DNA of 64,000 nt from Eledone cirrhosa (taxonomy: Eukaryota): the NCBI GenBank assembly GCA_964016885.1, contig OZ024740.1, positions 180,730,001 to 180,794,000 on the forward strand, read 5' to 3'. The position numbers and the translations under genes were made by a program. Below, one piece after another: positions 9,471-62,061 of the stretch. The notes under the pieces were generated by a model. It was not told the DNA's origin, did no database searches, and worked only from the letters and a program-made list of their open reading frames with translations. Numbering within the stretch: position 1 is the first letter of the stretch; every line of letters begins with the position of its first letter.

Positions 9471-9988
9471 AATACCGTAAATACTAGCAATACTTTGGAG
9501 AAATTATTATTTCAAAAGCAACTTACACGGCAGAATTTTATAAATATTCAATAGTGTTCCCAACTATAATGGTGCATTAAAGAAAGAAGGATAGAGTGGA
9601 AAAATAAAACATTAAAAGATTATAGAAATGACGAGGAATAGAAAAAGCACGTGCAAACATTATACTGCAACTAAACATACACACAAACTTACACAAAACG
9701 ATATATATATAAAAACAAATAACGAAACGCAATTAAATTTCGTTTCGTTTGTAACTCACTTTTGTATGACTGACGCTTAAACAATTAAGTTAAAAATGTA
9801 CATCCACATATGTATACTGAAATACTAGTATGCATATGAATACACACACGTATACATATGTAGATGTACCAAGTTTTTCACTGGTCACTTTACTGTGAGT
9901 GTCCAGCTATTCTGTATGTAAACACACAGACAAACCGGTTTTTAGAGTCATACTGGTTCTTGAGGAAACACCTTTCCTCTATTCTCCA

Positions 9989-10068
9989 GAAAGCCAGACA
10001 AGGAATATTGAACTAGTTTCGTTGTTGTTACAACTCATCAGCAATATTTACCTATCTTCCGGCCTTTC
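9989..10068 (-). ncRNA. Type I hammerhead ribozyme, family A (inverted copy)
   Basis: Reverse complement of the motif at 10512-10591; TCATCAG at 10035-10041. Confidence 0.88.
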
Positions 10069-10511
10069 TGGAGAATCGTAAAAGCACATATCGTTATATG
10101 CTTTTTCTATGAAAATTAGTAGTGGGCAGACTAATTTGCATAGAGTGTGAGTACGTACCGGTTCAACGGAGACGATAAAAACAAATAACGAAACGAAATT
10201 AAATTTCGTTTCGTTTGTAACTCACGTTTGTATGACTGAAGCTTAAACAATTAAGTTAAAAATGTACATCCACATATGTATACTGAAATACTAGTATGCA
10301 TATGAATACACACACGTATACATACTTAATTGTTTAGGCGTCAGTCATACAAAAGTGAGTTACAAACGAAACGAAATTTAATTTCGTTTCGTTATTTGTT
10401 TTTATCGCCTCCGTTGAACCGGTACGTACTCACACTCTATGCAAATTAGTCTGCCCACTACTAATTTTCATAGAAAAAGCATATAACGATATGTGCTTTT
10501 ACGATTCTCCA

Positions 10512-10591
10512 GAAAGGCCGGAAGATAGGTAAATATTGCTGATGAGTTGTAACAACAACGAAACTAGTTCAATATTCCTTGTCTGGCTTTC
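10512..10591 (+). ncRNA. Type I hammerhead ribozyme, family A
   Basis: Stem I AATATTG/CAATATT, extended by GAAAGGCCGGA/TCTGGCTTTC; core CTGATGA (10539-10545); stem II GTTGT-AACA-ACAAC; GAAA; palindromic stem III ACTAGT; GUU cleavage triplet (10567-10569). Confidence 0.9.
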
Positions 10592-10977
10592 TGAAGAATA
10601 GAGGAAAGGTGTTTCCTCAAAAACCAGTATGACTCTAAAAACCGGTTTGTCTGTGTGTTTACATACAGAATAGCTGGACACTCACAGTAAAGTGACCAGT
10701 GAAAAACTTGGTACATCTACATATGTATACGTGTGTGTATTCATATGCATACTAGTATTTCAGTATACATATGTGGATGTACATTTTTAACTTAATTGTT
10801 TAAGCGTCAGTCATACAAAAGTGAGTTACAAACGAAACGAAATTTAATTTCGTTTCGTTATTTGTTTTTATCGTCTCCGTTGAACCGGTACGTACTCACA
10901 CTCTATGCAAATTAGTCTGCCCACTACTAATTTTCATAGAAAAAGCATATAACGATATGTGCTTTTACGATTCTCCA

Positions 10978-11057
10978 GAAAGGCCGGAAGATAGGTAAAT
11001 ATTGCTGATGAGTTGTAACAACAACGAAACTAGTTCAATATTCCTTGTCTGGCTTTC
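10978..11057 (+). ncRNA. Type I hammerhead ribozyme, family A
   Basis: Same motif, CTGATGA at 11005. Confidence 0.9.
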
Positions 11058-11443
11058 TGGAGAATAGAGGAAAGGTGTTTCCTCAAAAACCAGTATGACT
11101 CTAAAAACCGGTTTGTCTGTGTGTTTACATACAGAATAGCTGGACACTCACAGTAAAGTGACCAGTGAAAAATTTGGTACATCTACATATGTATACGTGT
11201 GTGTATTCATATGCATACTAGTATTTCAGTATACATATGTGGATGTACATTTTTAACTTAATTGTTTAAGCGTCAGTCATACACAAGTGAGTTACAAACG
11301 AAACGAAATTTAATTGCGTTTCGTTATTTGTTTCTATCGTCTCCGTTGAACCGGTACGTACTCACACTCTATGCAAATTAGTCTGCCCACTACTAATTTT
11401 CATAGAAAAAGCATATAACGATATGTGCTTTTACGATTCTCCA

Positions 11444-11523
11444 GAAAGGCCGGAAGATAGGTAAATATTGCTGATGAGTTGTAACAACAACGAAACTAGT
11501 TCAATATTCCTTGTCTGGCTTTC
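11444..11523 (+). ncRNA. Type I hammerhead ribozyme, family A
   Basis: Same motif, CTGATGA at 11471. Confidence 0.9.
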
Positions 11524-11730
11524 TGGAGAATAGAGGAAAGGTGTTTCATCAAAAACCAGTATGACTCTAAAAACCGGTTTGTCTGTGTGTTTACATACAG
11601 AATAGCTGGACACTCACAGTAAAGTGACCAGTGAACAATTTGGTACATCTACATATGTATACGTGTGTGTATTCATATGCATACTAGTATTTCAGTATAC
11701 ATATGTGGATGTACATTTTTAACTTAATTG

Positions 11731-11818
<88 letters not shown>

Positions 11819-14009
11819 GCATGTGTGTATGCATAAGCGTGTAAATACAGTGCTGTTCTTAAGAATATGTACACTGCAGATCGTATAGATTTTTAGAGCT
11901 GGACTGTTTTATTACAGATGGTTTTCTATTACATAGCAATAGTACATACACATTCACTTAGCTTTTACTGAATCCATAATTTCATTATACAAATGTAGAT
12001 ATAAGAGCAATTATTTATATCAACATGCTAGGGATAACCATTGTTAATAATTGTGCTTTTAAACGTGCAAATCCATGGCGCATACTTTGGGATTTCTATG
12101 TGTTGGTTTGTTTCAAATGCGACATTTTCAAACGAGGATGATTTTTTTCTGTTTCATCTACATTTGTATATTATTAAGCGGGAATTTATTGTGCATGCAT
12201 ATATATTGCTGATGAAATATATAACCGGTTTCTTATTGCAACGAGAACTAATGTTGAATAAATAGCTTTCACTGTATTATTAATCCTAATATATATTAAA
12301 ATCAGATTAGAATAATATTTTGTAATTCTTTGATAGTTTTAGACAAGTTTCAGGGAGAATGAAAAAGACGCAATTAAAAACATTCAGCTATAAATCCTGA
12401 GCTCTTGAACATATATTCAACAAACATCATATATGCATATCTACAATACAAAGCTAGAAAATATCATCCCAGTTTACTACAGCAGAATTGCAAAACACGG
12501 AAGCCATTTGGAAAGAAAAATATAATTTATCAATTATGTAACATGCCACTTTAAACAAGAGCCAACAATTATCACAAAATTAATGAACGCCACATTATTT
12601 AATTAATTTAGCTGAATCACACTTTTTTTAACAATGATAATGAAGCTCCACAGAAACTTGACAAATTCCCGAAGTCATGAATAATAATCTGAAGATGACA
12701 ATAGAACATTATTTAAGATATGGAATTATGTTTCTGTGAAACCCCAAAATTGTTTTCCCTGTCAATATTTAGGTAAGTCAGAACAACTAACTTCCTGATT
12801 TATTTTAAATAAAAAGAAATACATTGAAACTAAACTAACTCTTTGCTGCTGCGCAGAGGTAAATATCTCATCAACCGCTTGATTTCCTACATATGGTGTT
12901 CAATATTTACCTGAAATTCTATCTCATGAATCAGAGAATTTGAATTACATCTATCAAATACTAGATATAAGATATGTGTGACTATGTAAACATGCTACGT
13001 ATGGCAATTAAACTTATATTTAACGAAAGACATGTTGTATTGAATTAAATGGCATTCTTATTAATTTATATCTCTGTAACATTTACGAAACACCTTCAGA
13101 ATACTTCATTAAGGACTCAAGGCTTAATAGTTAGAAACGAGGGTTGCGGCTTTCGCAAAAATAAGCGGTTGGTGATTTGGGAGAAATAAAATACCATTAG
13201 CGATTCTCTCATTGACCAACGAAAAAAGCAGTATATTACAGAATTTCGGGGTTCTGTGTTATCGTGTAGGTGAAATGTTCTCAACCCATTTCGGCCAAAC
13301 GCCCCCTTTTGCCTCTCGAAATCACGAAACGCCCCTCCCCCCTATTTTTCCATTATTAAATATACTATTGATTTTGATATCAGTAGATTAATGGGCCAAA
13401 AAATCAAGTTATCTTTGAATCTTTAAAAAATACTCGTACGAATTAAATTCAAAAGAGTTTCAGTCCAAAAGAAAAGCAAGATATTTAAAATGATATATTT
13501 TTGAAATAAAAAAAAAAGATTTGATCTCAGTCGAAAATTTATTTTTTTTTTAAATTCTATATTTCACTGTTACCTGTTGTAATATTTTGAGTGGATAGAC
13601 AATTGAAACTGTAAAGTCAAAATACAAAAGATGCAAAATATGAAGAATTTCTTACCTTTCTCTGAAATCACAAACTCAGAGGAAAAATATTAGCTTGCAA
13701 AATAATATACCTCGTAGCGAAATAAAATACTTAGTGGCCACGAATGAATGGAGAAGCTTGGTGACTGAAAAAGCAAGATCTGTGTGCCTTGGTTTTGGTA
13801 CAGGAAGAATGTTGTCTCCAGTTTTTATTGCAGGTCAAAGGTCACTGCTCTTTTCAACAACACCAAATAACAACGCCACATATATATATATATATATTTG
13901 AAGAGAGAATGAGGGGGGAGAGTAAAATAGCTGTGTGTGTTTGGAAAACGTATATCTACCTATCTATCTATCACCAACAGAGGGCTCAAACATGGTAGAC
14001 CAGACAGAA

Positions 14010-17882: not shown

Positions 17883-20421
17883 TAACTCGTCCCATGGTCT
17901 GAGGGCTCCACCACTACAGATATTACCTTCCAGTGTTCAACCACTATATACGTCTCCAGCAACGGTCAGCAGATCTTTTCACTACGTAGAAGTTTGGCTT
18001 TTAGCAGATCCTTCACCACGTGCGAGTTTGGCTTCTTACCCTGTGAGCACTCTCTCTATCTTCGTGTCCTACACAAGTTTGTGTCTCATCAACGTCAGTA
18101 TGGATTTATACGAACCGGATTACTCCCTGAAGAACATTCCCACTCACTCCAACCATGTTTACTAAAAGCCTCTCCTACAAAAAGCGTAAGATGTCGTCAG
18201 AAGCTTAAGATGGCGAACCCTAGCCTTTGACGGCAAAGTTACAGGCACCAATAACACCTTCAACCTGAAATCTAGAGCCTACCCTGCTAAGGTAACTCAA
18301 CTTGCTCCTTTCGAGGTGGACCTTCTTGACTTAGTCGCTAACATTTCCTTTCGCAAACACCCTAACACCTTTCAAACTAAACTTAGACATGATATTAAGA
18401 AATGTAGGTCTTCTAATAACACCTTCGTCCTTTCCGACAAATCTAATAATATTTACGAAGTCGTCAACAGCACTTTCCGCCACTTAGCTCATAACGCTAT
18501 TACTCCCAAATATAAGAAAGCTAACCCTATGTCCTACCACGCCATTAATACAGAAGCCAAACAACTTGCCGCCGCCCTTAAGGTAGATAAGAAGCTACAA
18601 TCTCTAGCTAAGCGGGAGGCGTTCCTCACCCTGAAAAATCACAAGGTAGACTTTACTTCTAACCGCACATGTAGACTAATAAACCCGGCACGCACAGATA
18701 TGGGACTAGTCAGTAAGGCCATACCTAGAAACATAGTTTAGACCATTAGGACCAAGTCCAACCTGCCTCAGTGGGAGAACAGCGACTCCGTAATTAACTG
18801 GTTTAACTCCTTCAAATCTAAAATAGCGAAGTTCACACAGTTTGACATTTACCCATCCATCTCAGAGACCCTGTTAAACAAAGCGTTGGACTTTTCTACC
18901 ACTTACACTACAGTCGATGGTTTAGACAGGGAAATCATCGCTCACTTTCGGAAAACCCTCCTCTTCAACAACGGAGTAGCCTGGGAAAAGAAGTCAACAA
19001 CTTCAGACCTATTCGATGTCTCCATGGGATAGATTGACAATGCTGACGTATGCGACTTGGTTGGCCTATTTATTTTAGACATATTACCGATTAGATTTCC
19101 GGACTTCCACACAGGAATATACCGCGACGATGGACTGACCTTATCGAGCCATAAAAGTGATCACGACCTCGACCGGTTTAAAAAAGACTTAGCTTCTACC
19201 TTCAATGTCTAACAGTAGCTACCAACCTCTGTAGCGTAGATTTCTTAGACATTAATTTAGACCTTCGCACAAAAACATACAGACCCTTCCATAAGCTAAA
19301 CGAAAAACTCAATTACATTTACAAGGACTCATGCCACCCTCCCACTGTTTTAAGAAACTTCGTAAATAATATTAGTACTAGAATGTCAAACCTCTCCTCT
19401 AATAAGGCTATATTTGACTGGGCGGCACCCTACTATAACAAGGCGTTAGCTAACAGCGGCTTCTTGCAACCTATCACTTACTCTCCTACTAACAACAACA
19501 GCAATAAGAAAAGAAAGCGTAACTATAGACAAACTATCTGGTGCTCTCCTCCCTTCTCACGCAACGTCAAATCCAATGTAGGCAAAAAATGTCTAGCCCT
19601 CTTAGATAGGCTCTTTCCAATAAGTCATAAATACTGTTCCATCTTTAACCGACACAAAGTAAAACTAGGATACTCCTGCGCTAAGAACATGAAGGCCCAC
19701 ATCACCAACAGCCCTAAGAACAACACCCCCACCAGGGTGCACTTGCCCTAAGCCCGGAGCTTGTCCCCTCCAACAGCAATGCAACACACCCGCTGTAGTT
19801 TATGAAGCTCTGGTCAATTCCAACCGACCAAATCAACCACAGGAGATCAAATCCTATGTGGGTATGGCAGAGGGCCGATTTAAGGAACGCTTCTTGAACC
19901 ATCAGTCGACCTTTAGGTACCCGGACAGACGTTCATCCACGATACTCGCGAGCCACGTATGGTTCCTCAAGGAGTCAAGTATAGACTACACCATTCAATG
20001 GAAAGCCATCACTAAGTCCAAGCCATACGCAAGGGGCAATTTGTTGTGTGGACTATGTATTGATGAACGAATAAATATTCTAAAGAGATTACGCAATAGT
20101 GATTGCCTAAACACGCGAAATGAATTCTTCACACGTTGTCCACACGTCTGGAAACATCTCTTACATAACTACAAAGTTCCGGATTGAATTACAACAACAT
20201 CCTAATTTTCTTATCAATTAGAAACTTTCTGACTTCCGCAGTTATCTCCCTTACACTTCTCGCACGCAATTTAGTATTGCCTGTGAGAAGTGATCTTTTC
20301 TGACCATGCGCGTTCGTACGGTTGTCCTTCCTGTCCGTATAACCATGTCCATTACGAGCTGACGATCCGCTAGGGTGAAACAATTGTTCTCGGTATGGTG
20401 AACTAACTGTTGTGTAACCAC

Positions 20422-32679: not shown

Positions 32680-35600
32680 ATAAGTTGAAAAAAATGAAAA
32701 CGAAATTTCATTTCTCACTCTTAGTATGGCACTTACTTAAATGTAAGTATGTATGTATACGTACATACATATATGTATACAGACGTACAGTAGCATGCAT
32801 ATATATATATATATATATATACATATATACACATATGCATACAGGTACACATACATATATGCACGCATCAGTTTAGCCGACGTTTATTATAACGCCTGCT
32901 TTGTTCGTTTGTTTGTCAACAAATCGAACAGCCTGAATTTATGCCATACGGTGTTAAGGCAACCACGTCACCTTTTTGTTCAACACTGACACAGGAACGA
33001 TGTACTAGTTTCAAGCTTGTTAGCTATCATCAGCACCGTTTACCCATCTGCCAGATAGTTGAACGTTCGAAAGTATATACTTTCCTTATGAAAATTAACG
33101 GCTGAGCAGCCTAATTTGCATATTGAGTGAGTTAAATCGGTCAGGCATACCGAAAACGATAAGTTGAAAAAAATGAAAACGAAATTTCATTTCTCACTCT
33201 TAGTATGGCACTTACTTAAATGTAAGTATGTATGTATACGTACATACATATATGTATACAGACGTACAGTAGCATGCATATATATATATATATATATATA
33301 CATATATACACATATGCATACAGGTACACATACATATATGCACGCATCAGTTTAGCCGACGTTTATTATAACGCCTGCTTTGTTCGTTTGTTTGTCAACA
33401 AATCGAACAGCCTGAATTTATGCCATACGGTGTTAAGGCAACCACGTCACCTTTTTGTTCAACACTGACACAGGAACGATGTACTAGTTTCAAGCTTGTT
33501 AGCTATCATCAGCACCGTTTACCCATCTGCCAGATAGTTGAACGTTCGAAAGTATATACTTTCCTTATGAAAATTAACGGCTGAGCAGCCTAATTTGCAT
33601 ATTGAGTGAGTTAAATCGGTCAGGCATACCGAAAACGATAAGTTGAAAAAAATGAAAACGAAATTTCATTTCTCACTCTTAGTATGGCACTTACTTAAAT
33701 GTAAGTATGTATGTATACGTACATACATATATGTATACAGACGTACAGTAGCATGCATATATATATATATATATATATACATATATACACATATGCATAC
33801 AGGTACACATACATATATGCACGCATCAGTTTAGCCGACGTTTATTATAACGCCTGCTTTGTTCGTTTGTTTGTCAACAAATCGAACAGCCTGAATTTAT
33901 GCCATACGGTGTTAAGGCAACCACGTCACCTTTTTGTTCAACACTGACACAGGAACGATGTACTAGTTTCAAGCTTGTTAGCTATCATCAGCACCGTTTA
34001 CCCATCTGCCAGATAGTTGAACGTTCGAAAGTATATACTTTCCTTATGAAAATTAACGGCTGAGCAGCCTAATTTGCATATTGAGTGAGTTAAATCGGTC
34101 AGGCATACCGAAAACGATAAGTTGAAAAAAATGAAAACGAAATTTCATTTCTCACTCTTAGTATGGCACTTACTTAAATGTAAGTATGTATGTATACGTA
34201 CATACATATATGTATACAGACGTACAGTAGCATGCATATATATATATATATATATATACATATATACACATATGCATACAGGTACACATACATATATGCA
34301 CGCATCAGTTTAGCCGACGTTTATTATAACGCCTGCTTTGTTCGTTTGTTTGTCAACAAATCGAACAGCCTGAATTTATGCCATACGGTGTTAAGGCAAC
34401 CACGTCACCTTTTTGTTCAACACTGACACAGGAACGATGTACTAGTTTCAAGCTTGTTAGCTATCATCAGCACCGTTTACCCATCTGCCAGATAGTTGAA
34501 CGTTCGAAAGTATATACTTTCCTTATGAAAATTAACGGCTGAGCAGCCTAATTTGCATATTGAGTGAGTTAAATCGGTCAGGCATACCGAAAACGATAAG
34601 TTGAAAAAAATGAAAACGAAATTTCATTTCTCACTCTTAGTATGGCACTTACTTAAATGTAAGTATGTATGTATACGTACATACATATATGTATACAGAC
34701 GTACAGTAGCATGCATATATATATATATATATATATACATATATACACATATGCATACAGGTACACATACATATATGCACGCATCAGTTTAGCCGACGTT
34801 TATTATAACGCCTGCTTTGTTCGTTTGTTTGTCAACAAATCGAACAGCCTGAATTTATGCCATACGGTGTTAAGGCAACCACGTCACCTTTTTGTTCAAC
34901 ACTGACACAGGAACGATGTACTAGTTTCAAGCTTGTTAGCTATCATCAGCACCGTTTACCCATCTGCCAGATAGTTGAACGTTCGAAAGTATATACTTTC
35001 CTTATGAAAATTAACGGCTGAGCAGCCTAATTTGCATATTGAGTGAGTTAAATCGGTCAGGCATACCGAAAACGATAAGTTGAAAAAAATGAAAACGAAA
35101 TTTCATTTCTCACTCTTAGTATGGCACTTACTTAAATGTAAGTATGTATGTATACGTACATACATATATGTATACAGACGTACAGTAGCATGCATATATA
35201 TATATATATATATATACATATATACACATATGCATACAGGTACACATACATATATGCACGCATCAGTTTAGCCGACGTTTATTATAACGCCTGCTTTGTT
35301 CGTTTGTTTGTCAACAAATCGAACAGCCTGAATTTATGCCATACGGTGTTAAGGCAACCACGTCACCTTTTTGTTCAACACTGACACAGGAACGATGTAC
35401 TAGTTTCAAGCTTGTTAGCTATCATCAGCACCGTTTACCCATCTGCCAGATAGTTGAACGTTCGAAAGTATATACTTTCCTTATGAAAATTAACGGCTGA
35501 GCAGCCTAATTTGCATATTGAGTGAGTTAAATCGGTCAGGCATACCGAAAACGATAAGTTGAAAAAAATGAAAACGAAATTTCATTTCTCACTCTTAGTA

Positions 35601-38312
35601 TGGCACTTACTTAAATGTAAGTATGTATGTATACGTACATACATATATGTATACAGACGTACAGTAGCATGCATATATATATATATATATATATACATAT
35701 ATACACATATGCATACAGGTACACATACATATATGCACGCATCAGTTTAGCCGACGTTTATTATAACGCCTGCTTTGTTCGTTTGTTTGTCAACAAATCG
35801 AACAGCCTGAATTTATGCCATACGGTGTTAAGGCAACCACGTCACCTTTTTGTTCAACACTGACACAGGAACGATGTACTAGTTTCAAGCTTGTTAGCTA
35901 TCATCAGCACCGTTTACCCATCTGCCAGATAGTTGAACGTTCGAAAGTATATACTTTCCTTATGAAAATTAACGGCTGAGCAGCCTAATTTGCATATTGA
36001 GTGAGTTAAATCGGTCAGGCATACCGAAAACGATAAGTTGAAAAAAATGAAAACGAAATTTCATTTCTCACTCTTAGTATGGCACTTACTTAAATGTAAG
36101 TATGTATGTATACGTACATACATATATGTATACAGACGTACAGTAGCATGCATATATATATATATATATATATACATATATACACATATGCATACAGGTA
36201 CACATACATATATGCACGCATCAGTTTAGCCGACGTTTATTATAACGCCTGCTTTGTTCGTTTGTTTGTCAACAAATCGAACAGCCTGAATTTATGCCAT
36301 ACGGTGTTAAGGCAACCACGTCACCTTTTTGTTCAACACTGACACAGGAACGATGTACTAGTTTCAAGCTTGTTAGCTATCATCAGCACCGTTTACCCAT
36401 CTGCCAGATAGTTGAACGTTCGAAAGTATATACTTTCCTTATGAAAATTAACGGCTGAGCAGCCTAATTTGCATATTGAGTGAGTTAAATCGGTCAGGCA
36501 TACCGAAAACGATAAGTTGAAAAAAATGAAAACGAAATTTCATTTCTCACTCTTAGTATGGCACTTACTTAAATGTAAGTATGTATGTATACGTACATAC
36601 ATATATGTATACAGACGTACAGTAGCATGCATATATATATATATATATATATACATATATACACATATGCATACAGGTACACATACATATATGCACGCAT
36701 CAGTTTAGCCGACGTTTATTATAACGCCTGCTTTGTTCGTTTGTTTGTCAACAAATCGAACAGCCTGAATTTATGCCATACGGTGTTAAGGCAACCACGT
36801 CACCTTTTTGTTCAACACTGACACAGGAACGATGTACTAGTTTCAAGCTTGTTAGCTATCATCAGCACCGTTTACCCATCTGCCAGATAGTTGAACGTTC
36901 GAAAGTATATACTTTCCTTATGAAAATTAACGGCTGAGCAGCCTAATTTGCATATTGAGTGAGTTAAATCGGTCAGGCATACCGAAAACGATAAGTTGAA
37001 AAAAATGAAAACGAAATTTCATTTCTCACTCTTAGTATGGCACTTACTTAAATGTAAGTATGTATGTATACGTACATACATATATGTATACAGACGTACA
37101 GTAGCATGCATATATATATATATATATACATATATACACATATGCATACAGGTACACATACATATATGCACGCATCAGTTTAGCCGACGTTTATTATAAC
37201 GCCTGCTTTGTTCGTTTGTTTGTCAACAAATCGAACAGCCTGAATTTATGCCATACGGTGTTAAGGCAACCACGTCACCTTTTTGTTCAACACTGACACA
37301 GGAACGATGTACTAGTTTCAAGCTTGTTAGCTATCATCAGCACCGTTTACCCATCTGCCAGATAGTTGAACGTTCGAAAGTATATACTTTCCTTATGAAA
37401 ATTAACGGCTGAGCAGCCTAATTTGCATATTGAGTGAGTTAAATCGGTCAGGCATACCGAAAACGATAAGTTGAAAAAAATGAAAACGAAATTTCATTTC
37501 TCACTCTTAGTATGGCACTTACTTAAATGTAAGTATGTATGTATACGTACATACATATATGTATACAGACGTACAGTAGCATGCATATATATATATATAT
37601 ATATATACATATATACACATATGCATACAGGTACACATACATATATGCACGCATCAGTTTAGCCGACGTTTATTATAACGCCTGCTTTGTTCGTTTGTTT
37701 GTCAACAAATCGAACAGCCTGAATTTATGCCATACGGTGTTAAGGCAACCACGTCACCTTTTTGTTCAACACTGACACAGGAACGATGTACTAGTTTCAA
37801 GCTTGTTAGCTATCATCAGCACCGTTTACCCATCTGCCAGATAGTTGAACGTTCGAAAGTATATACTTTCCTTATGAAAATTAACGGCTGAGCAGCCTAA
37901 TTTGCATATTGAGTGAGTTAAATCGGTCAGGCATACCGAAAACGATAAGTTGAAAAAAATGAAAACGAAATTTCATTTCTCACTCTTAGTATGGCACTTA
38001 CTTAAATGTAAGTATGTATGTATACGTACATACATATGTGTATACAGACGTACAGTAGCATGCATATATATATATATATATATATACATATATACACATA
38101 TGCATACAGGTACACATACATATATGCACGCATCAGTTTAGACAAACAAACGAACAAAGCAGGCGTTATAATAAACGTCGGCTAAACTGATGCGTGCATA
38201 TATGTATGTGTACCTGTATGCATATGTGTATATATGTATATATATATATATATATATATGCATGCTACTGTACGTCTGTATACATATATGTATGTACGTA
38301 TACATACATACT

Positions 38313-38317
<5 letters not shown>
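32680..38317 (-). mobile_element. Retrozyme-like tandem array, family B (479-bp unit, about 11.4 copies), plus an inverted partial unit at 38141-38317, inserted in (TA)n
   Basis: Exact 479-bp period (ORFs at 33164, 33643, 34122 and onward); one unit is 4 bp shorter in its (TA)n; each of the 11 full units has a minus-strand hammerhead. Confidence 0.9.
32986..33054 (-). ncRNA. Type I hammerhead ribozyme, family B (first of 11 copies; the others start at 33465, 33944, 34423, 34902, 35381, 35860, 36339, 36818, 37293, 37772)
   Basis: Minus sense reads CTGGCA GATGGGTA AACGGTG-CTGATGA-T AGCT AACA AGCT T-GAAA-CTAG-TA-CATCGTT CCTG TGTCAG: stem I AACGGTG/CATCGTT, distal stem CTGGCA/TGTCAG, palindromic stem III ACTAGT, GUA triplet. 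Confidence 0.88.
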
Positions 38318-38377
<60 letters not shown>

Positions 38378-38441
38378 TATAAAGTATGTCCATAGAATCA
38401 TTTGATAATATATATATACACCATTTCCTCTCCCAATTAGC

Positions 38442-38446
<5 letters not shown>

Positions 38447-38531
<85 letters not shown>

Positions 38532-40250: not shown

Positions 40251-41898
40251 TCTCTCTCTTTGTATGTTAATGTACGCATGTGTATGTGTATGTGTATATG
40301 TGTGTCTGTGTGTGTGTGTGAATGTGTGTGTGTGTGTGTGGGTGGACAAGTATTTTTGTGATACTGGTAAAAATGGTGTACATTATTCGATATTTTCAAT
40401 AAAACACGATTCTCTCAATAGAACATCAAAAACCTTAATAATAAAAGGTGTGAAATGATATATAGTATTGGCATAAGCCCCAAGGTATGTGTGCGAGTGT
40501 CCAGATTGTACGTACTGCAAGGGGAATCCATTAGGCCTTACCGTATTGGAATATTTGTGTACAAATATGTATGTGCTCATCAGTGTGCAATGCATGTGTG
40601 CGTATATGTATGTGTGTGTGTCAGCACGTTTATATCTATAGACATCAAAAGGTATTCAAATTTGTGTATATTTGTGTTGCACCATAGAACATGTGTGTTT
40701 ACGTAAGTCATTGTGTTCATATGTGGATAGAGATGTATGTAGGATGTATGCTGATGTAGGTATGTATGTTGACGTGTGTATGATGTGGGTTCGTCTTAGG
40801 TAGAAGTGTTTAGACGGGGTCCGTATTTGTTAATAAAGTGAGATTCCTTGCTGATGAGCTGGGTGTGGGCGGCATTATCTATAAATTTGTAGAGGGGAAA
40901 GATTCTGAAGATGGGATGATTTGAGGCGGCGCGTGTATCAATGTGTTCACTCAGTGGTATTTTCCTGTATTCCCGTATTTTAATTTGGGATCTATGGACT
41001 GTCATGCGTTGGCGGAGGCTGAATTGGTCTGGCCTATGTATTGTTCTCGACAACCTGAGCAAGTTAATACATATATTAGATTTTCTGATGCGCATGTGAA
41101 ATTGTGTTTTATTATAAAACGTTGTCTTTCTTTGAAATAGAATTCCGAACCTTCTATTAGGTTGATGGATATGCCACAGTTGGATCTATCGCATTTTTTT
41201 ACTGTGGGTTTCGTTGTTGTGGTTGACAGTAGTTTGGCATGCGTTAGGATGTTTTTCATTGACTTAGATTGTCTTTTGCTCTTTATGATATCGTGTGTTC
41301 GTAGGATTTGGTTAATTCTATGGTCCTTTTTTAACACATGGAAGTTCTGGAGGATGGTCTCAAAGGCATCATTGTTGAGGGGGTTGTGTGTGGAGATGTA
41401 TGGAAGAGCTTTTAGTTTCGGTTGATTTACTTTAGGGTGTCTAAGGTCCTGGGTACTGAGTTTTAGGGCACGTTGGATTCCATTGTCAATTAGTGATGCA
41501 GGGTAGTCCCTGCCTATTAGTGTGTCCTTTAGTTCTTGTAGCCGTAAGTAACAGGTGTTTTTATTGGAGACTATAGTACAGATTCTCTTGGCTAAGCTGT
41601 AGGGAATATTAATTTTAACGTGTATAGGGTGGAAAGAGTTGAAAGGAAGATATTGCTTTGAGTCTGTGGGCTTGTAGTATATGTTTGTTTCTATTTTTTT
41701 GTTATGAATCTTAATGAGGATGTCGAGGAAGGGGAGTTGTTGATGGCTGTATTCCATCGTGAAGTTAATATTCGTGTTGAGCCCATTTATAAGGGTGTGA
41801 AATTCTTTAAGTTTCTCGATGTTTTCGTGCCAAAGGATGAAGCAGTCATCTAGATATCGCTTCCAGTTCCTTTCTATGTGTGAGTGGAGAGTGTTTCC
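39517..41898 (-). mobile_element. Inverted 3' portion of the Neptune-like Penelope element (RT C-terminus, GIY-YIG, 3' UTR)
   Basis: ORF 41002-41913 (-): WKRYLDDCF, LPFLDILI, YYKPTD, GIY-YIG NLIYVLTCSGCREQYIGQT; mirrors about 43650-46000. Confidence 0.92.
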
Positions 41899-44800
41899 AT
41901 AACAGAACCGCACAACAACTTCGCAAACCCCCAGCCACTAACAAAAGAAGAAGGAAGCACCACACCGAAGATGAACTTCCCAACCTCGCTACCATAAGAA
42001 GGAACAAAAACCCTAGAAATCATCTCCCCCAGAATGACATTTACAACTGTTCCCCTTCAAGGAGACACCATACCAAATCACTCAACTACTACGCGGATGC
42101 CTCAACGTCAAACATAGGGAAAATATACCACCACCATGATAGATGTAACAACTTCCCCGCCTCAAGGGGACAGCAAGGTAATTTCCATGTTCTCAACTCT
42201 CGCTTCCACAATACACAACAAACCCACACCACACGATACAACTAACAACGTAGGCCACCTATAACACCACAATCCAACATGGCACATAGAAACACACATC
42301 CATACTCGCAATACAGGAACACCCCATTCAATCTACAACCATGAACCCGAACCACATTTTACAACAACAAGGAATATAACAAACGCAGGAGACCACTTAA
42401 CATCAGCAGACAACCCCTCTACCCCAACCATTTTTTAGACACAGCACACAGATATAGGCAAACAAAATAACACAAGACAGGGAGGAGAAACCGAGAGTAA
42501 TAAAAATTATCAATCTAACTAGTGCAGAACCAACACCCAACATTATCAACTTACTCTCCAAAGGTCTTAAATTCACACCGACCCTTCTACGTCCTAACTA
42601 CTATGAAATGAAGGAAGACATCACAGACTTTTGTAGAAAGTTACGATTCAGTGAAGAATTATTCGACCAGTATAATGAGGATGAATCATTAGCCAGAAAT
42701 AGAAGCAATTACACCCCATCAAAAGGTAGAAATAAAATCCTGGACGAATTCTGTGAACACATCACAAACTTCCCTTACCAGCACTAGCACAGACAAAACC
42801 AAAAGCCAAACCTCAACAAGAAAGGATGGGAAGAATTAAATAGATTAAAAACCGACAGAACCATTACAATTAAAGAGGCTGATAAAGGGAGTACAGTAGT
42901 CCTAATGGAGACAGAATTCTATATTAACTTAGCGCTCTACACTTTCGAAAAAGAAACATACTACGAAAAGGCTGAACACTACAATCAACAGAAAATTATG
43001 AGAAACCGAAAAGCTCTGATCAACCAATACAAAGAAGGACTCACTAACAAGGAATTCAGCTTCATCACAGACTTCACAAGTAAATCCAGCCTTTTCTACA
43101 GTATCCCTAAAGTACATAAAAGCGAATTAATAAATAAGGCATTCAAGGAAGCCACAGACATAGTCATCAATGTCCCCTCACCCAATGATCTCAACTTAAG
43201 ACCTATAATAGCAGGCCCCGCCTGCGAAACCCACCGCCTTAGCAACTTCATTGATACCTTCTCAAGCCTTTTCTCAAACACATTAAAAGCTATATAAGGG
43301 ACGACCTAGATATGCTCAATCACCTCCCTAATATGCCCCTTTCTGAACAAACCCTACTAGTGACGTTCGATGTAGTCAACCTATACTCCAACATCCCCCA
43401 CAACCTAGGAATAGAAGCTATCGAATTATTGCTGGATAATTACCACAATGAACTCCCACAACGCATCGAAAAAGAAATGGAGATAGAGGGACTCAAATTT
43501 ATCTTGGAGAACAATTACTTCGTTTTCAATAGCAAACCCTACAGGCAGAAATCTGGGACCGTTATGGGAACGAAAACAGCCCCCACTTATGCCAACCTAG
43601 TCATGGGATACTTGGAAATCACCCTCTACACTAAAGTACTAAACAAATTTGGAAACACTCTCCACTTACACATAGAAAGGAACCGGAAGCGATATCTAGA
43701 TGACTGCTTCATCCTTTGGCACGAAAACATCGAGAAACTTAAAGAATTTCACACCCTTATAAATGGGCTCAACACGAATATTAACTTCACGATGGAATAC
43801 AGCCATCAACAACTCCCCTTCCTCGACATCCTCATTAAGATTCATAACAAAAAAATAGAGACAGACATATACTACAAGCCCTCAGACTCAAAGCAATATC
43901 TTCCTTTCAACTATTGCCACCCTAGACACGTTAAAATTAATATTCCCTACAACTTAGCCAAGAGAATCTATACTATAGTCTCCAATAAAAAACACCTGTT
44001 ACTTACGGCTACAAGAATTAAAGGACACACTCATAGGCAAGGACCACCCTGCATCACTAATTGACAATAGAATCCAACGTGCCCTAAAACTCAGTACCCA
44101 GGACCTTAGACACCCTAAAGTAAATCAACCGAAACTAAAAGTTCTTCCATACATCTCCAACAAAAAACCCACTCAACAATGAGGCATTTGACACCATCCT
44201 CCAGATCTTCCCTGTGTTAAAAAAGGACCATAGAATTAACCAAATCCTATGAACACACGATATCATGAAGAGCAAAAGACAATCTAAGTCAATGAAAAAC
44301 ATCCTAACACATGCCAAACTACTGCCAACCACATCAATGAAACCCACAGTAAAAAAATGCGATAGACCCAACTGTGGCATGTGCATCCACCTAACAGAAG
44401 GTTCGGAATTATATTTCAAAGAAGGACAACGTTTTATAATAAAACACAATCTCACATGCGCATCAGAAAATCTAATATATGTATTAACTTGCTCAGGTTG
44501 TCGAGAACAATACATAGGCCAGACCAATTCAGCCTCCGCCAACGTATGGCTGTCCATAGATCCCAAATTAAAATACAGGAATACAGGAAAATACCACTGA
44601 GTGAACACATTTATACCTGTGCGGCCAAAATCATCCCAACTTCAGAATCTTTCCCCTCTACACATTTAAAGATACTGCCACCCACACCCAGCGCATCAGT
44701 AAGAAATTTCACTTTATTAACAAATACGGACCCCGTATAAACACTTCTCCCTAAGACGAACCCTCAACATACACACGTCAACATACATACTTACATCGGC

Positions 44801-46439: not shown

Positions 46440-47282
46440 TATATACATACACGCATCTATATACGTACATACACGGGCATACGCGAAAACACCCGCCATA
46501 CATTCCTATACATGCATATACATAACAAAACATAAACCCGCGCGACACATGTACGCGCACACATACGAGCGTTTACACGAAATACACATTAAATATATAT
46601 ATATAAACATATATAAAAATATATATAAACGTCTATAAAAATATATATATAAACGTATATAAATATACAGATATAAATACGTATATAACGCACGCACACA
46701 CATACCTACAGGAAAATACACATATGTTCACCACACGACGTCAACCAAAACACAATGTACACAAATACACACCTTACATACGTGCAAACAGACATACACA
46801 CAACAACAAAATACACATATACATAACCATATACACATATACCAGTATAAATAATATAACATATACACCTATAACAAATACAAGACGTAAATTATTCGCG
46901 TATTGTTCGTACTATCCCATGGGGTATAATGTGGGGCTGTAATACAGAAAAGTGTTATGCAATATGTGTTTACAAGTCGAAATTGCCTCAGAATGTTGTT
47001 TAAGATGTGATCATTGGCGTAGAGTGTCCCAGTGTAAACTGTTTTGGGTGTGGCTGTCTTTTAGACTGCAGATATAAGCTGAAAGTGAAGTTACAGTCCT
47101 TCTTAAAAGGTTAAGAAAAATATGTGTGTGCATGTAAATACGGTGTTTGAATCTATTGGCGGTTAACCCTATGTAGGCCCTACTTGACGAGGGTGTTTCG
47201 ACCTTACATTTGTAGACAGTGTTACTGGAAACCCATTTCCCGGATATAGGGCAGTGAACCTGATTCCTACTATTACAGTTAC

Positions 47283-47283
<1 letters not shown>
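46440..47283 (-). pseudogene. 5'-truncated Naiad-like PLE fragment (GIY-YIG and 3' UTR)
   Basis: [25 protein letters not shown]...[17 protein letters not shown]...TSLSAYI in ORF 47011-47475. Confidence 0.8.
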
Positions 47284-47317
<34 letters not shown>

Positions 47318-47332
47318 GTATATATATGTATA

Positions 47333-47397
<65 letters not shown>

Positions 47398-47519
47398 AAG
47401 GTAAGTAGAATCGAAGCTTTGGCTGTGGCCAAGCAAAGTCGACCTACAATAAGGAATGAGTAGAAAAGCGGTCAATAAGGGTAGGTCCTTCGAGTGATAA
47501 CATTACGTTTTAAAAGCTT

Positions 47520-48098
47520 GACAAATTGAACATTGCGGTAGGCAAAAACCAACCATACAATACCAAAAACAACGAAAGACCTAATTAGGTTAACATATAT
47601 ATACGAAGAAACTCGGTCACTTCTCACAGGCAATACTAGACTGCGTGCGAGAGGTGTAAGTGAGATAATTGCGAAAGTCCGGAAAGATTTTAGGTTGAAA
47701 AGAAAATTAAAATAAAATTAAAAATAACATTACAAAGAATCAGTCTGCAATAGTGATTGCCTAAACACGAGAAGTGAATTTTTCACACGTTGTCCACACG
47801 TCACCAAACATCTATTGCATAACTACAAGGCCCCGGACTGATTCTTTGTAATTTTATTTTTAATGTTATTCTAATTTTGTTTTCAACCTAAAAACTTTCC
47901 GGACTTTCGCAGTTATCTCCCTTACACCTCTCGCACGCAGTCTAGTATTGCCTGTGAGAAGTGACCGAGTTTCTGCGCATGCGCGTTCGTACGGTTGTCC
48001 TTCCTGTTCCTATAAACATGCACAACCCGAGCTGAAGATCCGTAAGGGGAAACAATTGTTCTCGGTATGGTGAACTAACTGTTGTGTAACCACTTCTA
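47520..48098 (+). mobile_element. Solo pLTR of the PLE family at 17879, with an inverted partial copy upstream
   Basis: 47746-48098 is similar to 20092-20425 (encodes ..DCLNTRSEFFTRCPHVTKHLLHNYK); 47610-47735 is the reverse complement of about 47850-47972. Confidence 0.85.
48027..48065 (+). ncRNA. Minimal type I hammerhead ribozyme in a PLE pLTR
   Basis: CCGAG-CTGAAGA-TCC GTAA GGG-GAAA-CAATTG-TT-CTCGG: 5-bp stem I, GNRA-capped stem II, palindromic stem III, GUU triplet. Confidence 0.82.
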
Positions 48099-57749: not shown

Positions 57750-60700
57750 CCATCAGTCAATGCGATCAGTCGCATATTTTGGCGTGGGATACTATTTATT
57801 AAATTTAAGATGAATATTATCCCCGACAGTAATGTAACAACTACAGCCAGGTTGAATAACTGGTTATTCTTCTAACTATCCCTTCCGAAGACACCTTTTA
57901 TTTGAATTCGTAGAGATATCAGACTAAATACATAAGTTATTTTACAAGGATTTGCTACAAACACCATGGCTGAACACAACATCAACAAGAAAATTAAGGA
58001 AGTATCGAAGACAAATAACAAAGAAGGTAATCAAACTTTATTCAGTTGTAGCTACAGAAGAAACCGAAATTATAAATCGCATTTCTCTTGGAGTTGCGAA
58101 CTTAATAATGATTTATTTAATTGTTATAAAATGGCAAAAAACAATCCCTCCACTGGCTATATGAATAGAATGAAGCTACACTGGGCCGAAATGTCGCCAG
58201 AGCTAAATTATTTCACAGCGAAACAATTACGCCAACAAGCGACGTTTGTTGAACGTAAAAATAAGATAAATATTATTAATTGTAAGTCCCCCACAACAAA
58301 CATGGAATCAACAACACGTGCTACAGATCGCCCTGCTACTAGACCTCCTAGCAGCCAGGTCGAACAGCGCCTTGAAACAATTATGCCTGTACCATCTAAG
58401 TCTACCTCGAATGCTGGGGAAAACACTATCGATAATAATAATAATCGAATAAATAATAATAATTGTTTCTACTTTAGGCACAAGGCCAGCAATTACCCAG
58501 TGCATTACTGGTACTTTATTTTATCGACCCCTTAAGGATGAAAGGCAAAGTCAACCTCGGCGGGATTTGAATTCAGATCGTAAAGGGACGTAACTATGCT
58601 GGAAAGCATGGCGTCCGACCCTCTACCGATACTGCCAATCCATAATCGAATAAATGTGACACCACGTATACCATCCGAGTCTACCTCGACTGTTGTGGAA
58701 AATACTATCGATAATGATAATCAAAAGTATAAACAATTGAAAATTTCCCTCAACGAAATCTTCCAGAGAGAAATTAACTCATGTATAAATATCTCTCTGG
58801 CTGAACGTGTTAAAATGACGATGGTGAATAAAAAACCAAATAATGAAATACTATGTGTTATTGACGAAATAGGGGATGAATATTTAGGACGGATAAAAAC
58901 CCCAACATTTTGGCAAATCAACGCCTGTTTATATGCCTTAGCAATGACAGTGAAGCATTATCTTGGTGATAGCAGAGATATTAAAACAGCACCAAAAATA
59001 CTATCATATATAACAGCACCAAAAATACCATCATATATAACTAAAATAGAAAAAAAGAGTGCTGACCTACGAAAAAACATAGGACATGTGATAATGCTCC
59101 TTACATGCAAACAAACACAAACAAACCTCACTCCTCACCAACAAAAAGTGAAAAATAACATAGAGACGATGTTTGGTAACAGTAGAACCAGAACTCTCCA
59201 ATATAAGCTGATCATCCTCAAACAAAAATTGAGAGCTGTTAGCGAAAAACGCCGATACCTGAAGAAGGTAGATGAGAGAAAAATGTTTAATAAAAGATTC
59301 AGACGAAACCAAACATCAGTCTATAGAGATATGAAGGGCAAAATAATAATTGTCACTGAGGCCCCATCCCAGAAAGACATAGATTCCTTTTGCAGAAAAA
59401 TATGGGGTGAAAAGAAGAATTTCAACCAAGATGCAGTGTGGCTAAGAGAAATCCGAAAGAACTATTGCTCCTACACTACAACAAAAACATACGAAATAAG
59501 TGAGGGTACCCTTGAGACTGTGATAGGAAAACTCCAAGATAAGAAAACACCAGGAAGAGACATGATTGTCGGCTACTGGTACAAAAAACTAATATTCTAT
59601 CGGAGGTATCTTACTGACCTCTACCAAGAAGTTCTTAAGGGAGATACACTTATACCAGAATGGTTGACATTAGCACAGCGGTACTGGTCCCCAAGAACAA
59701 AGACACCCACTTGGCAAAAAACTACCGACCCATTGCATGCCAGAACCTGATGTATAAGAAATATACAGCCTGCCTCAACCTATTCCTCCAAGATCACAGT
59801 GAAAATAATAAGATCATCACAGATGAACAAGCAGCTGGAAAGAAAAGGGTTTGGGGATGTGCTGAACAACTCTTAATCAACAAAACTGCGATGTCGGAGG
59901 TGCGACAACTTAGGAGGAATATGACTACAGTCTGGCTGGACTACAAGAAAGCTTTCGATTCTGTTCCCCACTCTTGTATGATAGAGGCCCTCCAACTTGC
60001 TAAAGTCCCAGACATTATTGTCAGAGCCATAGAGAGGCTGTCTTCTTCTTGGGCTATTATCCTAAGGTTAAAGACAGAGAAGGAGGACTCTATTTTCACT
60101 GATAAAATAAAATATTGCAGCGGTATATTTCAGGGGGGAAGTCTCTCTGTGATATTGTTCATCTTGTCATTAAACCCCGTGTCCTTTCTGCTCAAGAAAT
60201 GTGAGGATACATCATTGGCTCACAGGAGGACAGAAATACGAACCTAACCCATAACTTCTTTGTGGACGATCTGAAACTGTATGCCAAGAACATGGATGGG
60301 ATGAAGAAAAATCTTGACCTGGTTACAACGTTCTCAAAGGATATAGGAATGGAGTTTGGCCAAGATAAATGCTCATACATGACTGTAAAGCGGGGAAAAA
60401 CAACAACCCAATCTAGCAACATTGTCATAAATGGTCTAACTGTTTCACCGATATCTGATGAGGACTGCTACAGATACCTGGGGATAGATGAGAACATATC
60501 CTATAATGGTATCTGCAATAAAGAACGCGTAACCAGGGAATACTACACCCGATTAAGAAAGATCAGGTCATCGGAACTCTCTGCGCAAGACAAAACAGTG
60601 GCTCACAATGTGTTTGCTGTGCCTGTCCTAACACGAAAGTTTGGAATACTCAATTGGACGATAGACGAAATCCGAGCAGTTGATGTTGAACTCGAAAAAT

Positions 60701-62061
60701 ACTGAACAACACCGGAAACTTCCACATCAACAGTGACATAGACTGCCTTTACTTGAAACGTAAGCAGGGAGGCAGAGGCCTAACATCAGTCCAGACAGCA
60801 TTTGAATGTCGCATCATATCTCTCCTACAACATCTACGAACCTCGAAGCGTAGGAACCCGCTTCTCGAGCAAGTCTATCTGCATGAAACAGATAAGATCA
60901 TGAGAGTTGGGAAGGAACTCCTTGAGAGATATTCCCTGTGTGATAATCAAAAACTCACACCCAGGGATGTCTCTCAGCAGTATCGCAGTGAATCCATGGA
61001 TGAAAAACTGCATGCCTATCAGCAAAAAATCATGCATGGATATGTTGCCAGGAAGCTCCAGAGTGAGAGTAATATAGATAAGGAAAGTAGTATATCTTGG
61101 ACCAACAACCGCTATATTGGCTCCCACTTTGAAGGATACGCTTTTGCAATCCAAGAACAGGAGATTAGCACGAAATACCTGATTCACAAAAGAGATAGGG
61201 ATGCAGGCAAAACACCTAGATGTAATAACAAGTGCAGACTCTGCAGAACTAACATCGAGGATATCACCCATGTCATCAGCAGCTGCCCAAAGATGTCATC
61301 GCGGTTCTATCTACCTATGTGGAATGATGTAGTGGCCAAAACACTGTACAATGCAGTTCGTAAAAAAGATAGCCCCGGTAATAAACACATTAAAATCTAC
61401 AATAATGTGTAAGACATCCATGTACATATTATGAAAGAGTAGTGGTGGAATGTTCCAGTAAAAACCCCAATAAGATGCAAGCATAACAGACCAGATATTA
61501 TGATATGGGACAGGGAGAAGAAAATATGCACAGTAGTGGAAATTAGCTGCCCAGCAGATGCCAATATAATATCAAAGATTAGTGAAAAGGAGAATATTTA
61601 TGCAGAACTGATGATAAATCTGCAGATACTCCACCCTGATTACACCTTCAGATTTATGCCTGTGATTATTGGGGCACTGGGATATGTTAGTAACTGCCTC
61701 AATACAAATCTTGAGAAGCTCGGCTTCACAGGAACAGAATGAACACAACTAGTTAGGAAATTACAAGTGCAATTCATTAATGGAACAGTAAAAGTATGTA
61801 AAACATTCCAAAAATGTTGAATCTAATAACTGCATATACATATGTACAGATACAAAGCATATACACATGCACACATACAACTCAAAACATACACATCCAC
61901 ACATACAATAACATCCATATCTACACATGCATGCATGCAGACATACATACATATCTACCTAATTGATGTTGTGTAAATTCCAATGAGAGAGTCTTGTGTC
62001 TATGTTAGAAACCGACTCTCTCTCTATTGGTAAAACTTAGTGAAATTATAAAACCAGAAGA
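57750..62061 (+). mobile_element. R4/Dong-like non-LTR retrotransposon (single ORF, RT + CCHC + restriction-like endonuclease), near full length, inactivated
   Basis: KTPGRD, NYRPIAC.NLMYK, WLDYKKAFDSVPH, GIFQGGSLS, FVDDLKLY, YRYLG, RKQGGRGL, CRLC...HVISSC, KHNRPDIMIWD, VEISCP, KENIY; frameshifts and stops; flanked by (TACA)n at 57719-57750 and 62062-62133. Confidence 0.92.
58455..58641 (-). mobile_element. tRNA-derived SINE inserted in the LINE ORF, with 14-bp TSD
   Basis: TSD ATAATCGAATAAAT at 58441-58454 and 58642-58655. Confidence 0.93.

What the first reader, a model, noticed from the sequence alone, without database searches (positions are those of the whole stretch)
9712..11729. Second, independent hammerhead array (466-bp unit) with a head-to-head inversion
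Seen: four hammerheads (one minus, three plus) with a canonical G-C-closed stem II, AACA loop, AACUAGUU palindromic stem III and GUU triplet. The units differ by scattered substitutions, yet the four ribozyme copies appear identical. The array switches orientation at about 10325 and both ends run into (TA)n. Inference: this is an older insertion of a sister retrozyme family.
Basis: partly seen in the sequence, partly recalled or inferred. Interest (0 to 1): 0.85.

Follow-up and report, generated by a model that had tools for sequence, protein, structure and literature searches.

The report
Young retrozyme with Penelope-type twin ends
This is one copy of a non-coding repeat found thousands of times in this animal genome, each unit carrying a predicted self-cutting RNA motif, and its two-armed insertions end exactly like those of a Penelope-like retrotransposon in the same genome, which likely supplies the enzyme that copies it.

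Summary
In detail: four identical type I hammerheads (one minus, three plus) in a 466-bp unit, an orientation switch at 10324, (TA)n at both ends. It is one insertion of a recently spread non-LTR retrozyme family (9,305 ribozyme-core matches, 0 in the control; copies 99-100% identical on many contigs), about 60% identical to the 479-bp array at 32.7-38.3 kb. The inversion is a family rule, not a local accident. Arms have random 5' ends and two fixed 3' ends about 70 nt apart (A, B), 230 and 300 nt past the predicted cut. Of 69 head-to-head insertions with both ends typed, 68 are A+B. An intact, hammerhead-less Neptune-like Penelope element here follows the same rule (22 of 22), and three loci join it directly to retrozyme sequence. 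Best reading: both target ends prime a Penelope-type reverse transcriptase at two internal RNA sites, on a circular or multimeric RNA. Not shown: cleavage, expression, circles, the partner enzyme; no sequence homology to either Penelope family examined. Identity of the four ribozymes is expected by chance (P=0.29). A new member of a known kind, with unusually clean mechanistic footprints.

The parts
9709..11730 (.). Whole insertion: two arms joined at their 5' ends, both 3' ends facing outward into (TA)n
9709..10324 (-). Minus arm, 616 nt, unit positions 153 to 302 through one predicted cut site; ends at site B (long end, carries the tail)
10324..11730 (+). Plus arm, about 3.0 units, unit position 221 to 229; ends at site A (short end)
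10324..10324 (.). Head-to-head junction, one shared base
10004..10048 (-). Type I hammerhead, predicted cut after 10011
10532..10576 (+). Type I hammerhead, predicted cut after 10569
10998..11042 (+). Type I hammerhead, predicted cut after 11035
11464..11508 (+). Type I hammerhead, predicted cut after 11501
10570..11035 (+). First predicted cut-to-cut monomer, 466 nt, strongly self-paired (-158.2 kcal/mol, z=-10.4)
11036..11501 (+). Second predicted cut-to-cut monomer
10798..10871 (+). 'Tail' between the family's two fixed 3' ends (unit positions about 229-302), holding a 13-bp hairpin at 10831-10859; inferred binding and priming region
9701..9711 (.). Left (TA)n target remnant, short
11730..11828 (.). 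Right (TA)n followed by (TG)n

Best explanation
This is one recent insertion of a non-coding, hammerhead-bearing tandem repeat family (a non-LTR retrozyme) whose head-to-head copies end at two fixed internal sites, one at each side, and which is likely copied by the reverse transcriptase-endonuclease of a Penelope-like element. Shown: the anatomy, the copy number, the two fixed 3' ends, the random 5' ends, the A+B rule, and the same rule in an intact Neptune-like element of this genome. Inferred steps: (1) tandem arrays are transcribed; (2) the ribozymes cut, probably as pairs because stem III is one base pair with a palindromic CUAG loop, and monomers are probably closed into 466-nt circles; (3) a Penelope-type protein, probably dimeric, binds the tail region and cuts both strands of a (TA)n target; (4) each target end primes reverse transcription, one at site B (about +300 from the cut) and one at site A (about +230); (5) both cDNAs run through the cut site on a circular or multimeric RNA, giving tandem units at the moment of insertion; (6) the two cDNA ends are joined through a few shared bases. 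If one primer barely extends, the copy looks single-armed with a stub of the other end.
For: A+B in 68 of 69 head-to-head insertions with both ends typed: 53 A+B and 1 A+A among 98 end-selected loci, 11 among 20 best-match loci, 4 among 8 incidental loci, 0 B+B; 12 further junctions had one end off the locus or at another position. Independent choice of ends would give at most half. In 12 of 33 single-arm rows a stub of the opposite arm is present, always of the complementary type. 156 observed 5' ends are spread over the unit, and 122 of 156 arms cross the cut site. Junctions: 41 of 68 overlap by 1-9 nt, 6 blunt, 16 with inserted bases, 5 with longer overlaps. The two arms of an insertion differ by 1.2%, different insertions by 5.0%, so both arms mostly come from one lineage of template. 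The Neptune-like element (784-aa open frame, RVT_1 plus C-terminal GIY-YIG) has two 3' ends about 40 nt apart running into (TA)n, one of each in 8 of 8 (of 12 loci) and 14 of 14 (of 20 loci) head-to-head copies with both ends seen. Direct 5'-side joins between that element and retrozyme sequence at L082, L117 and L166/L233. Selection on the RNA: a U-A/A-U swap in stem II in 37 loci on both sides; shared changes at paired sites keep the pair in 21 of 39 cases against 36 of 151 for private changes (Fisher P=0.0007); N17 varies between U and C. Papers: inverted 5'-truncated copy and a tail at one end are Penelope hallmarks (PMC8557442); a Penelope protein cuts and extends both strands and starts at two internal sites that bound the tail (PMC11167929).
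Against: No sequence likeness between the retrozyme unit and the terminal region of the Neptune-like element (best E=0.07) nor with the second, hammerhead-bearing Penelope family, whereas 24 of 57 Xenopus retrozyme families matched known elements, nearly all Penelope-like (10.64898/2026.07.22.740005). The tail is about 70 nt, not 30-40. One A+A insertion (L245). Two of the three chimeric loci break the one-each rule (L117 long+long, L233 short+short), and all three could instead be joins to Penelope DNA already in place; 20 more retrozyme-side and 20 more Penelope-side loci gave no new chimera (one of them was the extension of L166). 18 of 39 shared changes at paired sites break the predicted pair (9 to A-C, 9 otherwise). 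0 shared changes in 11 core sites is weak alone (about 2 expected). In vitro the Anolis protein showed no strand difference in start site, and 8 of 9 predicted Xenopus retrozyme dimers did not cleave. Loci were chosen by one exact end or by best match, mostly on contig C1.
Confidence: 0.8

Rival explanations
1. Same element, but the two ends come from processing of a DNA intermediate: one cDNA folds back to give an inverted double-stranded copy, and staggered endonuclease cuts at A and B free the ends for integration, rather than two priming events on RNA.
For: PMC8557442 ascribed the tail to endonuclease resolution of an intermediate. It would give a strict one-each rule by itself. Arms are alike within an insertion.
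Against: Junctions are asymmetric (the two arms stop at unrelated unit positions), with short overlaps typical of end joining; in vitro the tail ends coincide with reverse-transcription start sites (PMC11167929).
Confidence: 0.1
2. The unit is a detached terminal repeat of a Penelope element that became a satellite; arrays grew by unequal crossing-over and the inversion arose later by recombination, with the ribozyme a passenger.
For: Proposed as a scenario in 10.64898/2026.07.22.740005. Long arrays carry private variants repeated across units (L064, L118), so some local duplication occurs; units 2 and 3 of this locus share one variant not seen in 78 other loci.
Against: Thousands of dispersed copies with their own fixed 3' ends in (TA)n (563 and 986 forward-strand exact matches); both outer ends are 3' ends, which an inversion in place would not give; shared variants keep RNA pairs.
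Confidence: 0.05
3. The family is copied by a LINE (RTE/CR1-like fragments are common in these loci) with twin priming as known for L1, or is a Helitron-type non-autonomous DNA element.
For: LINE-type reverse transcriptase fragments lie in the window (58.6-61.4 kb; RVT_1 E=2.7e-15). The unit is rich in palindromes.
Against: LINE twin priming (recalled) fixes only one 3' end at an RNA tail and leaves the other flank at a variable internal point; here both outer ends are fixed and internal. Helitron-type elements (recalled) have a fixed 5' end; here 5' ends are random.
Confidence: 0.05

Closest known systems
Animal non-LTR retrozymes (coral, mussel, axolotl; PMC7229834; vertebrate survey 10.64898/2026.07.22.740005)
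   Same: Non-coding tandem units of a few hundred bp, one type I hammerhead each, low GC, strongly self-paired, thousands of copies, Penelope elements in the same genome. The one-pair stem III with a palindromic tetraloop resembles the axolotl HHR_Amex1 type that works best as a dimer.
   Different: Cleavage, expression and circles are not shown here. The parts of those papers that I read do not describe insertion ends; here the ends are mapped and follow a two-site rule. No matching Penelope terminal repeat was found.
Endonuclease-positive Penelope-like elements (Neptune/Nematis type; Poseidon PAc of Anolis, PMC11167929; structure summary PMC8557442)
   Same: Partial tandems, inverted 5'-truncated arm, tail at one end, two internal start sites downstream of the hammerhead cut, AT-rich or (TA)n targets.
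   Different: No open reading frame; tail about 70 nt rather than 30-40; ribozyme with full stem II and extended stem I rather than a minimal one.
Non-autonomous Chlamys elements such as MRC1 (PMC8557442)
   Same: Non-coding, multicopy head-to-tail insertions made by a Penelope-type partner.
   Different: Those generally share 3' sequence with their partner and lack canonical hammerheads; this one has hammerheads and no partner likeness found.
Plant LTR retrozymes
   Same: Non-autonomous, hammerhead-bearing, circular RNA model.
   Different: Type III ribozyme in LTRs, 4-bp target duplications, Gypsy partner; none of these here.

Membership tests
Non-LTR retrozyme | Type I hammerhead in each tandem unit, at least two consecutive | tested here: met
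Non-LTR retrozyme | Short non-coding unit, GC under 50% | tested here: met
   466 bp, GC about 0.35; no open frame of 150 aa or more overlaps it
Non-LTR retrozyme | Strongly self-paired monomer | tested here: met
   z=-10.4, 0 of 100 shuffles as stable; circular fold -153.9 plus, -132.5 minus
Non-LTR retrozyme | Dispersed multicopy family | tested here: met
   9,305 core matches against 0; many contigs
Non-LTR retrozyme | Self-cleavage of the transcript | not testable with these tools
   needs an assay; only sequence signs of selection
Non-LTR retrozyme | Expressed as linear and circular monomers | tested here: inconclusive
   no RNA holder listed
Non-autonomous Penelope-like element | Inverted 5'-truncated arm joined at the 5' end | tested here: met
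   61 head-to-head junctions in 98 end-selected loci
Non-autonomous Penelope-like element | Two fixed internal 3' ends (tail) with the tail at one end only | tested here: met
   68 of 69 A+B; tail longer than the published 30-40 bp
Non-autonomous Penelope-like element | Random 5' truncation | tested here: met
   156 ends spread over the unit
Non-autonomous Penelope-like element | (TA)n or AT-rich targets | tested here: met
   best-match loci, not chosen for flanks, end in (TA)n
Non-autonomous Penelope-like element | Sequence likeness to the terminal repeat of an autonomous partner | tested here: inconclusive
   not found for the two Penelope families examined; the genome holds others that were not examined
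LTR retrozyme | Type III hammerhead in LTRs with 4-bp target duplication | tested here: not met
   type I fold, tandem units, no unique duplication at this locus
Helitron-type non-autonomous element (features recalled) | Fixed 5' end | tested here: not met

The most novel reading that the evidence does not exclude
Animal retrozymes are true trans-substrates of Penelope enzymes, recognised by RNA shape rather than shared sequence: here a hammerhead-less Neptune-like element drives two retrozyme families, its dimer priming both ends of a (TA)n break at two different sites on a circular RNA, strictly one site per end, and sometimes switching between its own RNA and the retrozyme within one insertion. 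The one-each rule would then be the general explanation of the Penelope tail and inverted arm.
Probability: 0.4. Interest if true: 0.72.

Novelty: new member of a known kind. Interest (0 to 1): 0.5.

Why it matters
How Penelope-like elements make their tandem and inverted insertions is named as open in PMC8557442, and the link between animal retrozymes and these elements rests, in what I read, on co-occurrence, shared ribozyme type and terminal-repeat likeness. This family adds insertion-end evidence at scale and offers a short 466-nt RNA, two mapped start sites, a simple target and a young intact candidate enzyme in one genome, so the question becomes testable with a published type of assay. 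As an element it is ordinary for its kind; the value lies in the mechanism it exposes.

Tried and rejected
Expression: no RNA holder listed; the four runs laid are contigs of unknown kind. One holds a single 496-nt contig, which is one unit plus 30 nt; a tandem repeat and a circle give that alike, so it is not used. Footprint of cleavage in 5' ends: 22 ends at unit positions 461-30 against 11.9 expected (P=0.005 for that chosen window), but the best 36-nt window was reached in 38 of 300 permutations and the exact-site window 461-6 gave 7 against 3.8 (P=0.09); not accepted. Circle against linear multimer as template: 375 variable columns within insertions, 244 private to one unit, 100 family-level, 31 private but repeated; several family-level columns (109/111, 216, 231) look like alignment or end artefacts, and a few insertions (L069, L100, L128) mix subfamily alleles; inconclusive. 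Partner by homology: two Penelope families compared, no likeness; a pattern for shorter-stem ribozymes with the same stem III gave 109 matches against 21 control, mostly deletion variants of the two families, and no Penelope frame joined to them among the 30 loci held. L002 and L156 looked chimeric but are 3'-to-3' neighbours through (TA)n and were dropped. L099 duplicates L098 and was dropped from the counts (it is still); L075 and L115 (two insertions each) were left out. Target duplications: none unique at this locus; 4 direct and 2 inverted among 73 loci. Rfam at gathering threshold: nothing. Solved structures for the 784-aa frame: none. Earlier scan notes for this genome or sequence: none. 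Literature searches that found no description of this family or of a counted one-each end rule; the library lacks most subscription papers, so the older Penelope structure papers were not seen.

Full report
What is there. The window lies at G000:C1:180,730,001-180,794,000 in a 3.0-Gb genome rich in (TA)n and (CA)n; I take it for an animal, and my guess of a cephalopod is recalled from such features and untested. A both-strand scan found four hammerheads in the region with a 7-bp stem I, a 5-bp stem II, a palindromic stem III and GUU; the same scan gave one other strict hit in the window, at 48032. Rfam gave nothing at gathering level and HH9 at E=6.3e-08 below it; that alignment keeps the UA bulge in stem I and the A-rich loop II. 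I number the unit from the first base after the predicted cut. The minus arm (9709-10324) runs from position 153 through one cut site to 302; the plus arm (10324-11730) from 221 through three cut sites to 229. The 5' ends meet at one shared base and both 3' ends face outward into (TA)n. The monomer folds at -158.2 kcal/mol, z=-10.4. Closing stem III within one ribozyme costs about 6 kcal/mol, while two palindromes pair at -4.8 to -6.6, so cleavage by paired ribozymes is likely, as shown for the axolotl type (PMC7229834).

Family and age. The unit matches copies at 99-100% on many contigs (137 matches from 40 scored of 501 candidates). This family's ribozyme core occurs 9,305 times against 0 for the control; with the sister family, 23,601. 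Median identity of end-selected copies to the window unit is 96.5%, with subfamilies near 89%. The 479-bp array at 32680-38317 is a homologue, lies on the minus strand, and has the same two-armed form. It is more uniform than this array (0 in 4,786 against 14 in 2,022), so 'older' is fair between the two and misleading otherwise.

Selection. Across 80 loci, private changes fall at the same rate in the core and elsewhere (0.545 and 0.546 per site), as expected for copies that decay after landing. Changes shared by 3 or more loci are absent from the 11 core sites (89 in the 421 non-ribozyme sites), and within the ribozyme are a two-sided swap in stem II (37 loci), an A-U to G-U change in stem I (5 loci), a loop change, U/C at N17 (27 loci), and one break of the last stem I pair (5 loci). 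Over the whole monomer, shared changes keep predicted pairs in 21 of 39 cases, private ones in 36 of 151 (P=0.0007); RNAalifold on 32 monomers found 5 of 137 pairs with two-sided changes. Related copies are not independent, so these numbers are supportive only.

The inversion is a rule. Exact A-end and B-end patterns followed by (TA)n gave 563 and 986 forward-strand matches (reverse counts are inflated by overlaps). In the first 94 Mb of C1, 22 of 23 outward-facing pairs were A+B; the one B+B pair proved to be two insertions. I fetched 80 of the 87 regions so defined and 19 more A-end regions. The final tally is 68 A+B, 1 A+A, 0 B+B, and 12 junctions with one end unseen or elsewhere (these overlap the pairs). 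Of 33 single-arm rows, 12 carry a stub of the other arm, always the complementary end. 5' ends are scattered and 122 of 156 arms pass the cut site, so the template is a circle or an uncut multimer; I could not tell which. Arms of one insertion differ by 1.2%, insertions by 5.0%.

A Penelope element with the same rule. [quoted passage not shown] No canonical hammerhead was found in it. Its copies end at two sites about 40 nt apart, into (TA)n, one of each in all 22 head-to-head copies with both ends seen among 32 loci (read by eye). Among the 232 loci held, five put this element within 40 nt of retrozyme sequence; two are neighbours through (TA)n, three are direct 5'-side joins. At L082 a retrozyme B arm meets 39 nt of inverted retrozyme that runs, over 2 shared bases, into the Penelope frame and on to its short end. 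L117 and L166/L233 are similar but pair long with long and short with short. These fit template switching by one enzyme but could be joins to existing DNA. No sequence likeness links the unit to this element or to a second, hammerhead-bearing family, so the partner is a candidate only.

Mechanism. See Best explanation. Shown are the structure and the counts; transcription, cleavage, circles, binding and two-ended priming are inferred from them and from the Anolis system, where the protein cuts and extends both strands and starts at two internal sites bounding the tail, without needing ribozyme cleavage in vitro and with no strand bias in start site (PMC11167929). The strict one-each pairing seen here is therefore an in vivo constraint that the assay did not show.

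What is known. Non-LTR retrozymes are described (PMC7229834; parts 2-4 of 6 read) and were proposed as non-autonomous Penelope derivatives (10.64898/2026.07.22.740005; parts 1-3 of 5 read; supplements not seen). [quoted passage not shown] For PMC11167929 I read parts 1-2 of 4; its Fig. S2 maps genomic ends and may bear on the pairing rule, and I did not read it. Seven searches found no account of this family or of a counted rule, within a library that misses most subscription papers.

Verdict. Real, a new member of a known kind. It works like a non-autonomous Penelope element; membership by sequence descent from a Penelope terminal repeat is not shown. Interest 0.5; the bolder reading has probability 0.4 and interest 0.72.

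Noticed in passing
window 32680-38317 and flank 38320-38450: The 479-bp sister array (minus strand, GUA triplet, U-U at the base of stem II) also has a short inverted arm from about 38142 and one end of each type; about 75 nt of its left flank recur inverted on the right.
   Followed up: partly
L081, L090, L048-L053: Inverted duplications of flanking DNA around insertions (over 200 matching 14-mers in L081 and L090; L048-L053), unexplained by simple two-ended priming.
   Followed up: no
window 18190-20420: Broken Penelope-like element with a hammerhead at 20359 (palindromic stem III, GUU) ending in (TA)n; a related piece at 47011-48080 with a hammerhead at 48032; large older family (48,087 candidates).
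   Followed up: partly
window 41002-44640: Two opposed broken copies of the Neptune-like family; intact 784-aa relatives exist elsewhere, some in 4,734-bp tandems (L179).
   Followed up: yes
L179 upstream of 1363: About 900 nt of coding-like sequence lies before the 784-aa frame, separated by a stop and a possible splice donor; the true protein may be longer.
   Followed up: no
G000:C1:5738327-5752443 (L054-L060, L064): A 31-unit arm with a short opposite arm, still A+B over 14.6 kb; private variants recur in several units, suggesting later local duplication or a multimeric template.
   Followed up: partly
one search list: Many dispersed sister-family ribozymes share an 8-nt deletion in stem II, so a shortened-ribozyme subfamily appears to have spread.
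   Followed up: no
window 58584-61412: Frameshifted LINE-type element with reverse transcriptase.
   Followed up: no
window 27980 (-), 31662 (+), 63658 (+): Further hammerhead-core-like motifs, probably from other Penelope families.
   Followed up: no
L098 and L099: Identical 6-kb stretches 17.7 kb apart: a segmental duplication or an assembly duplicate.
   Followed up: no
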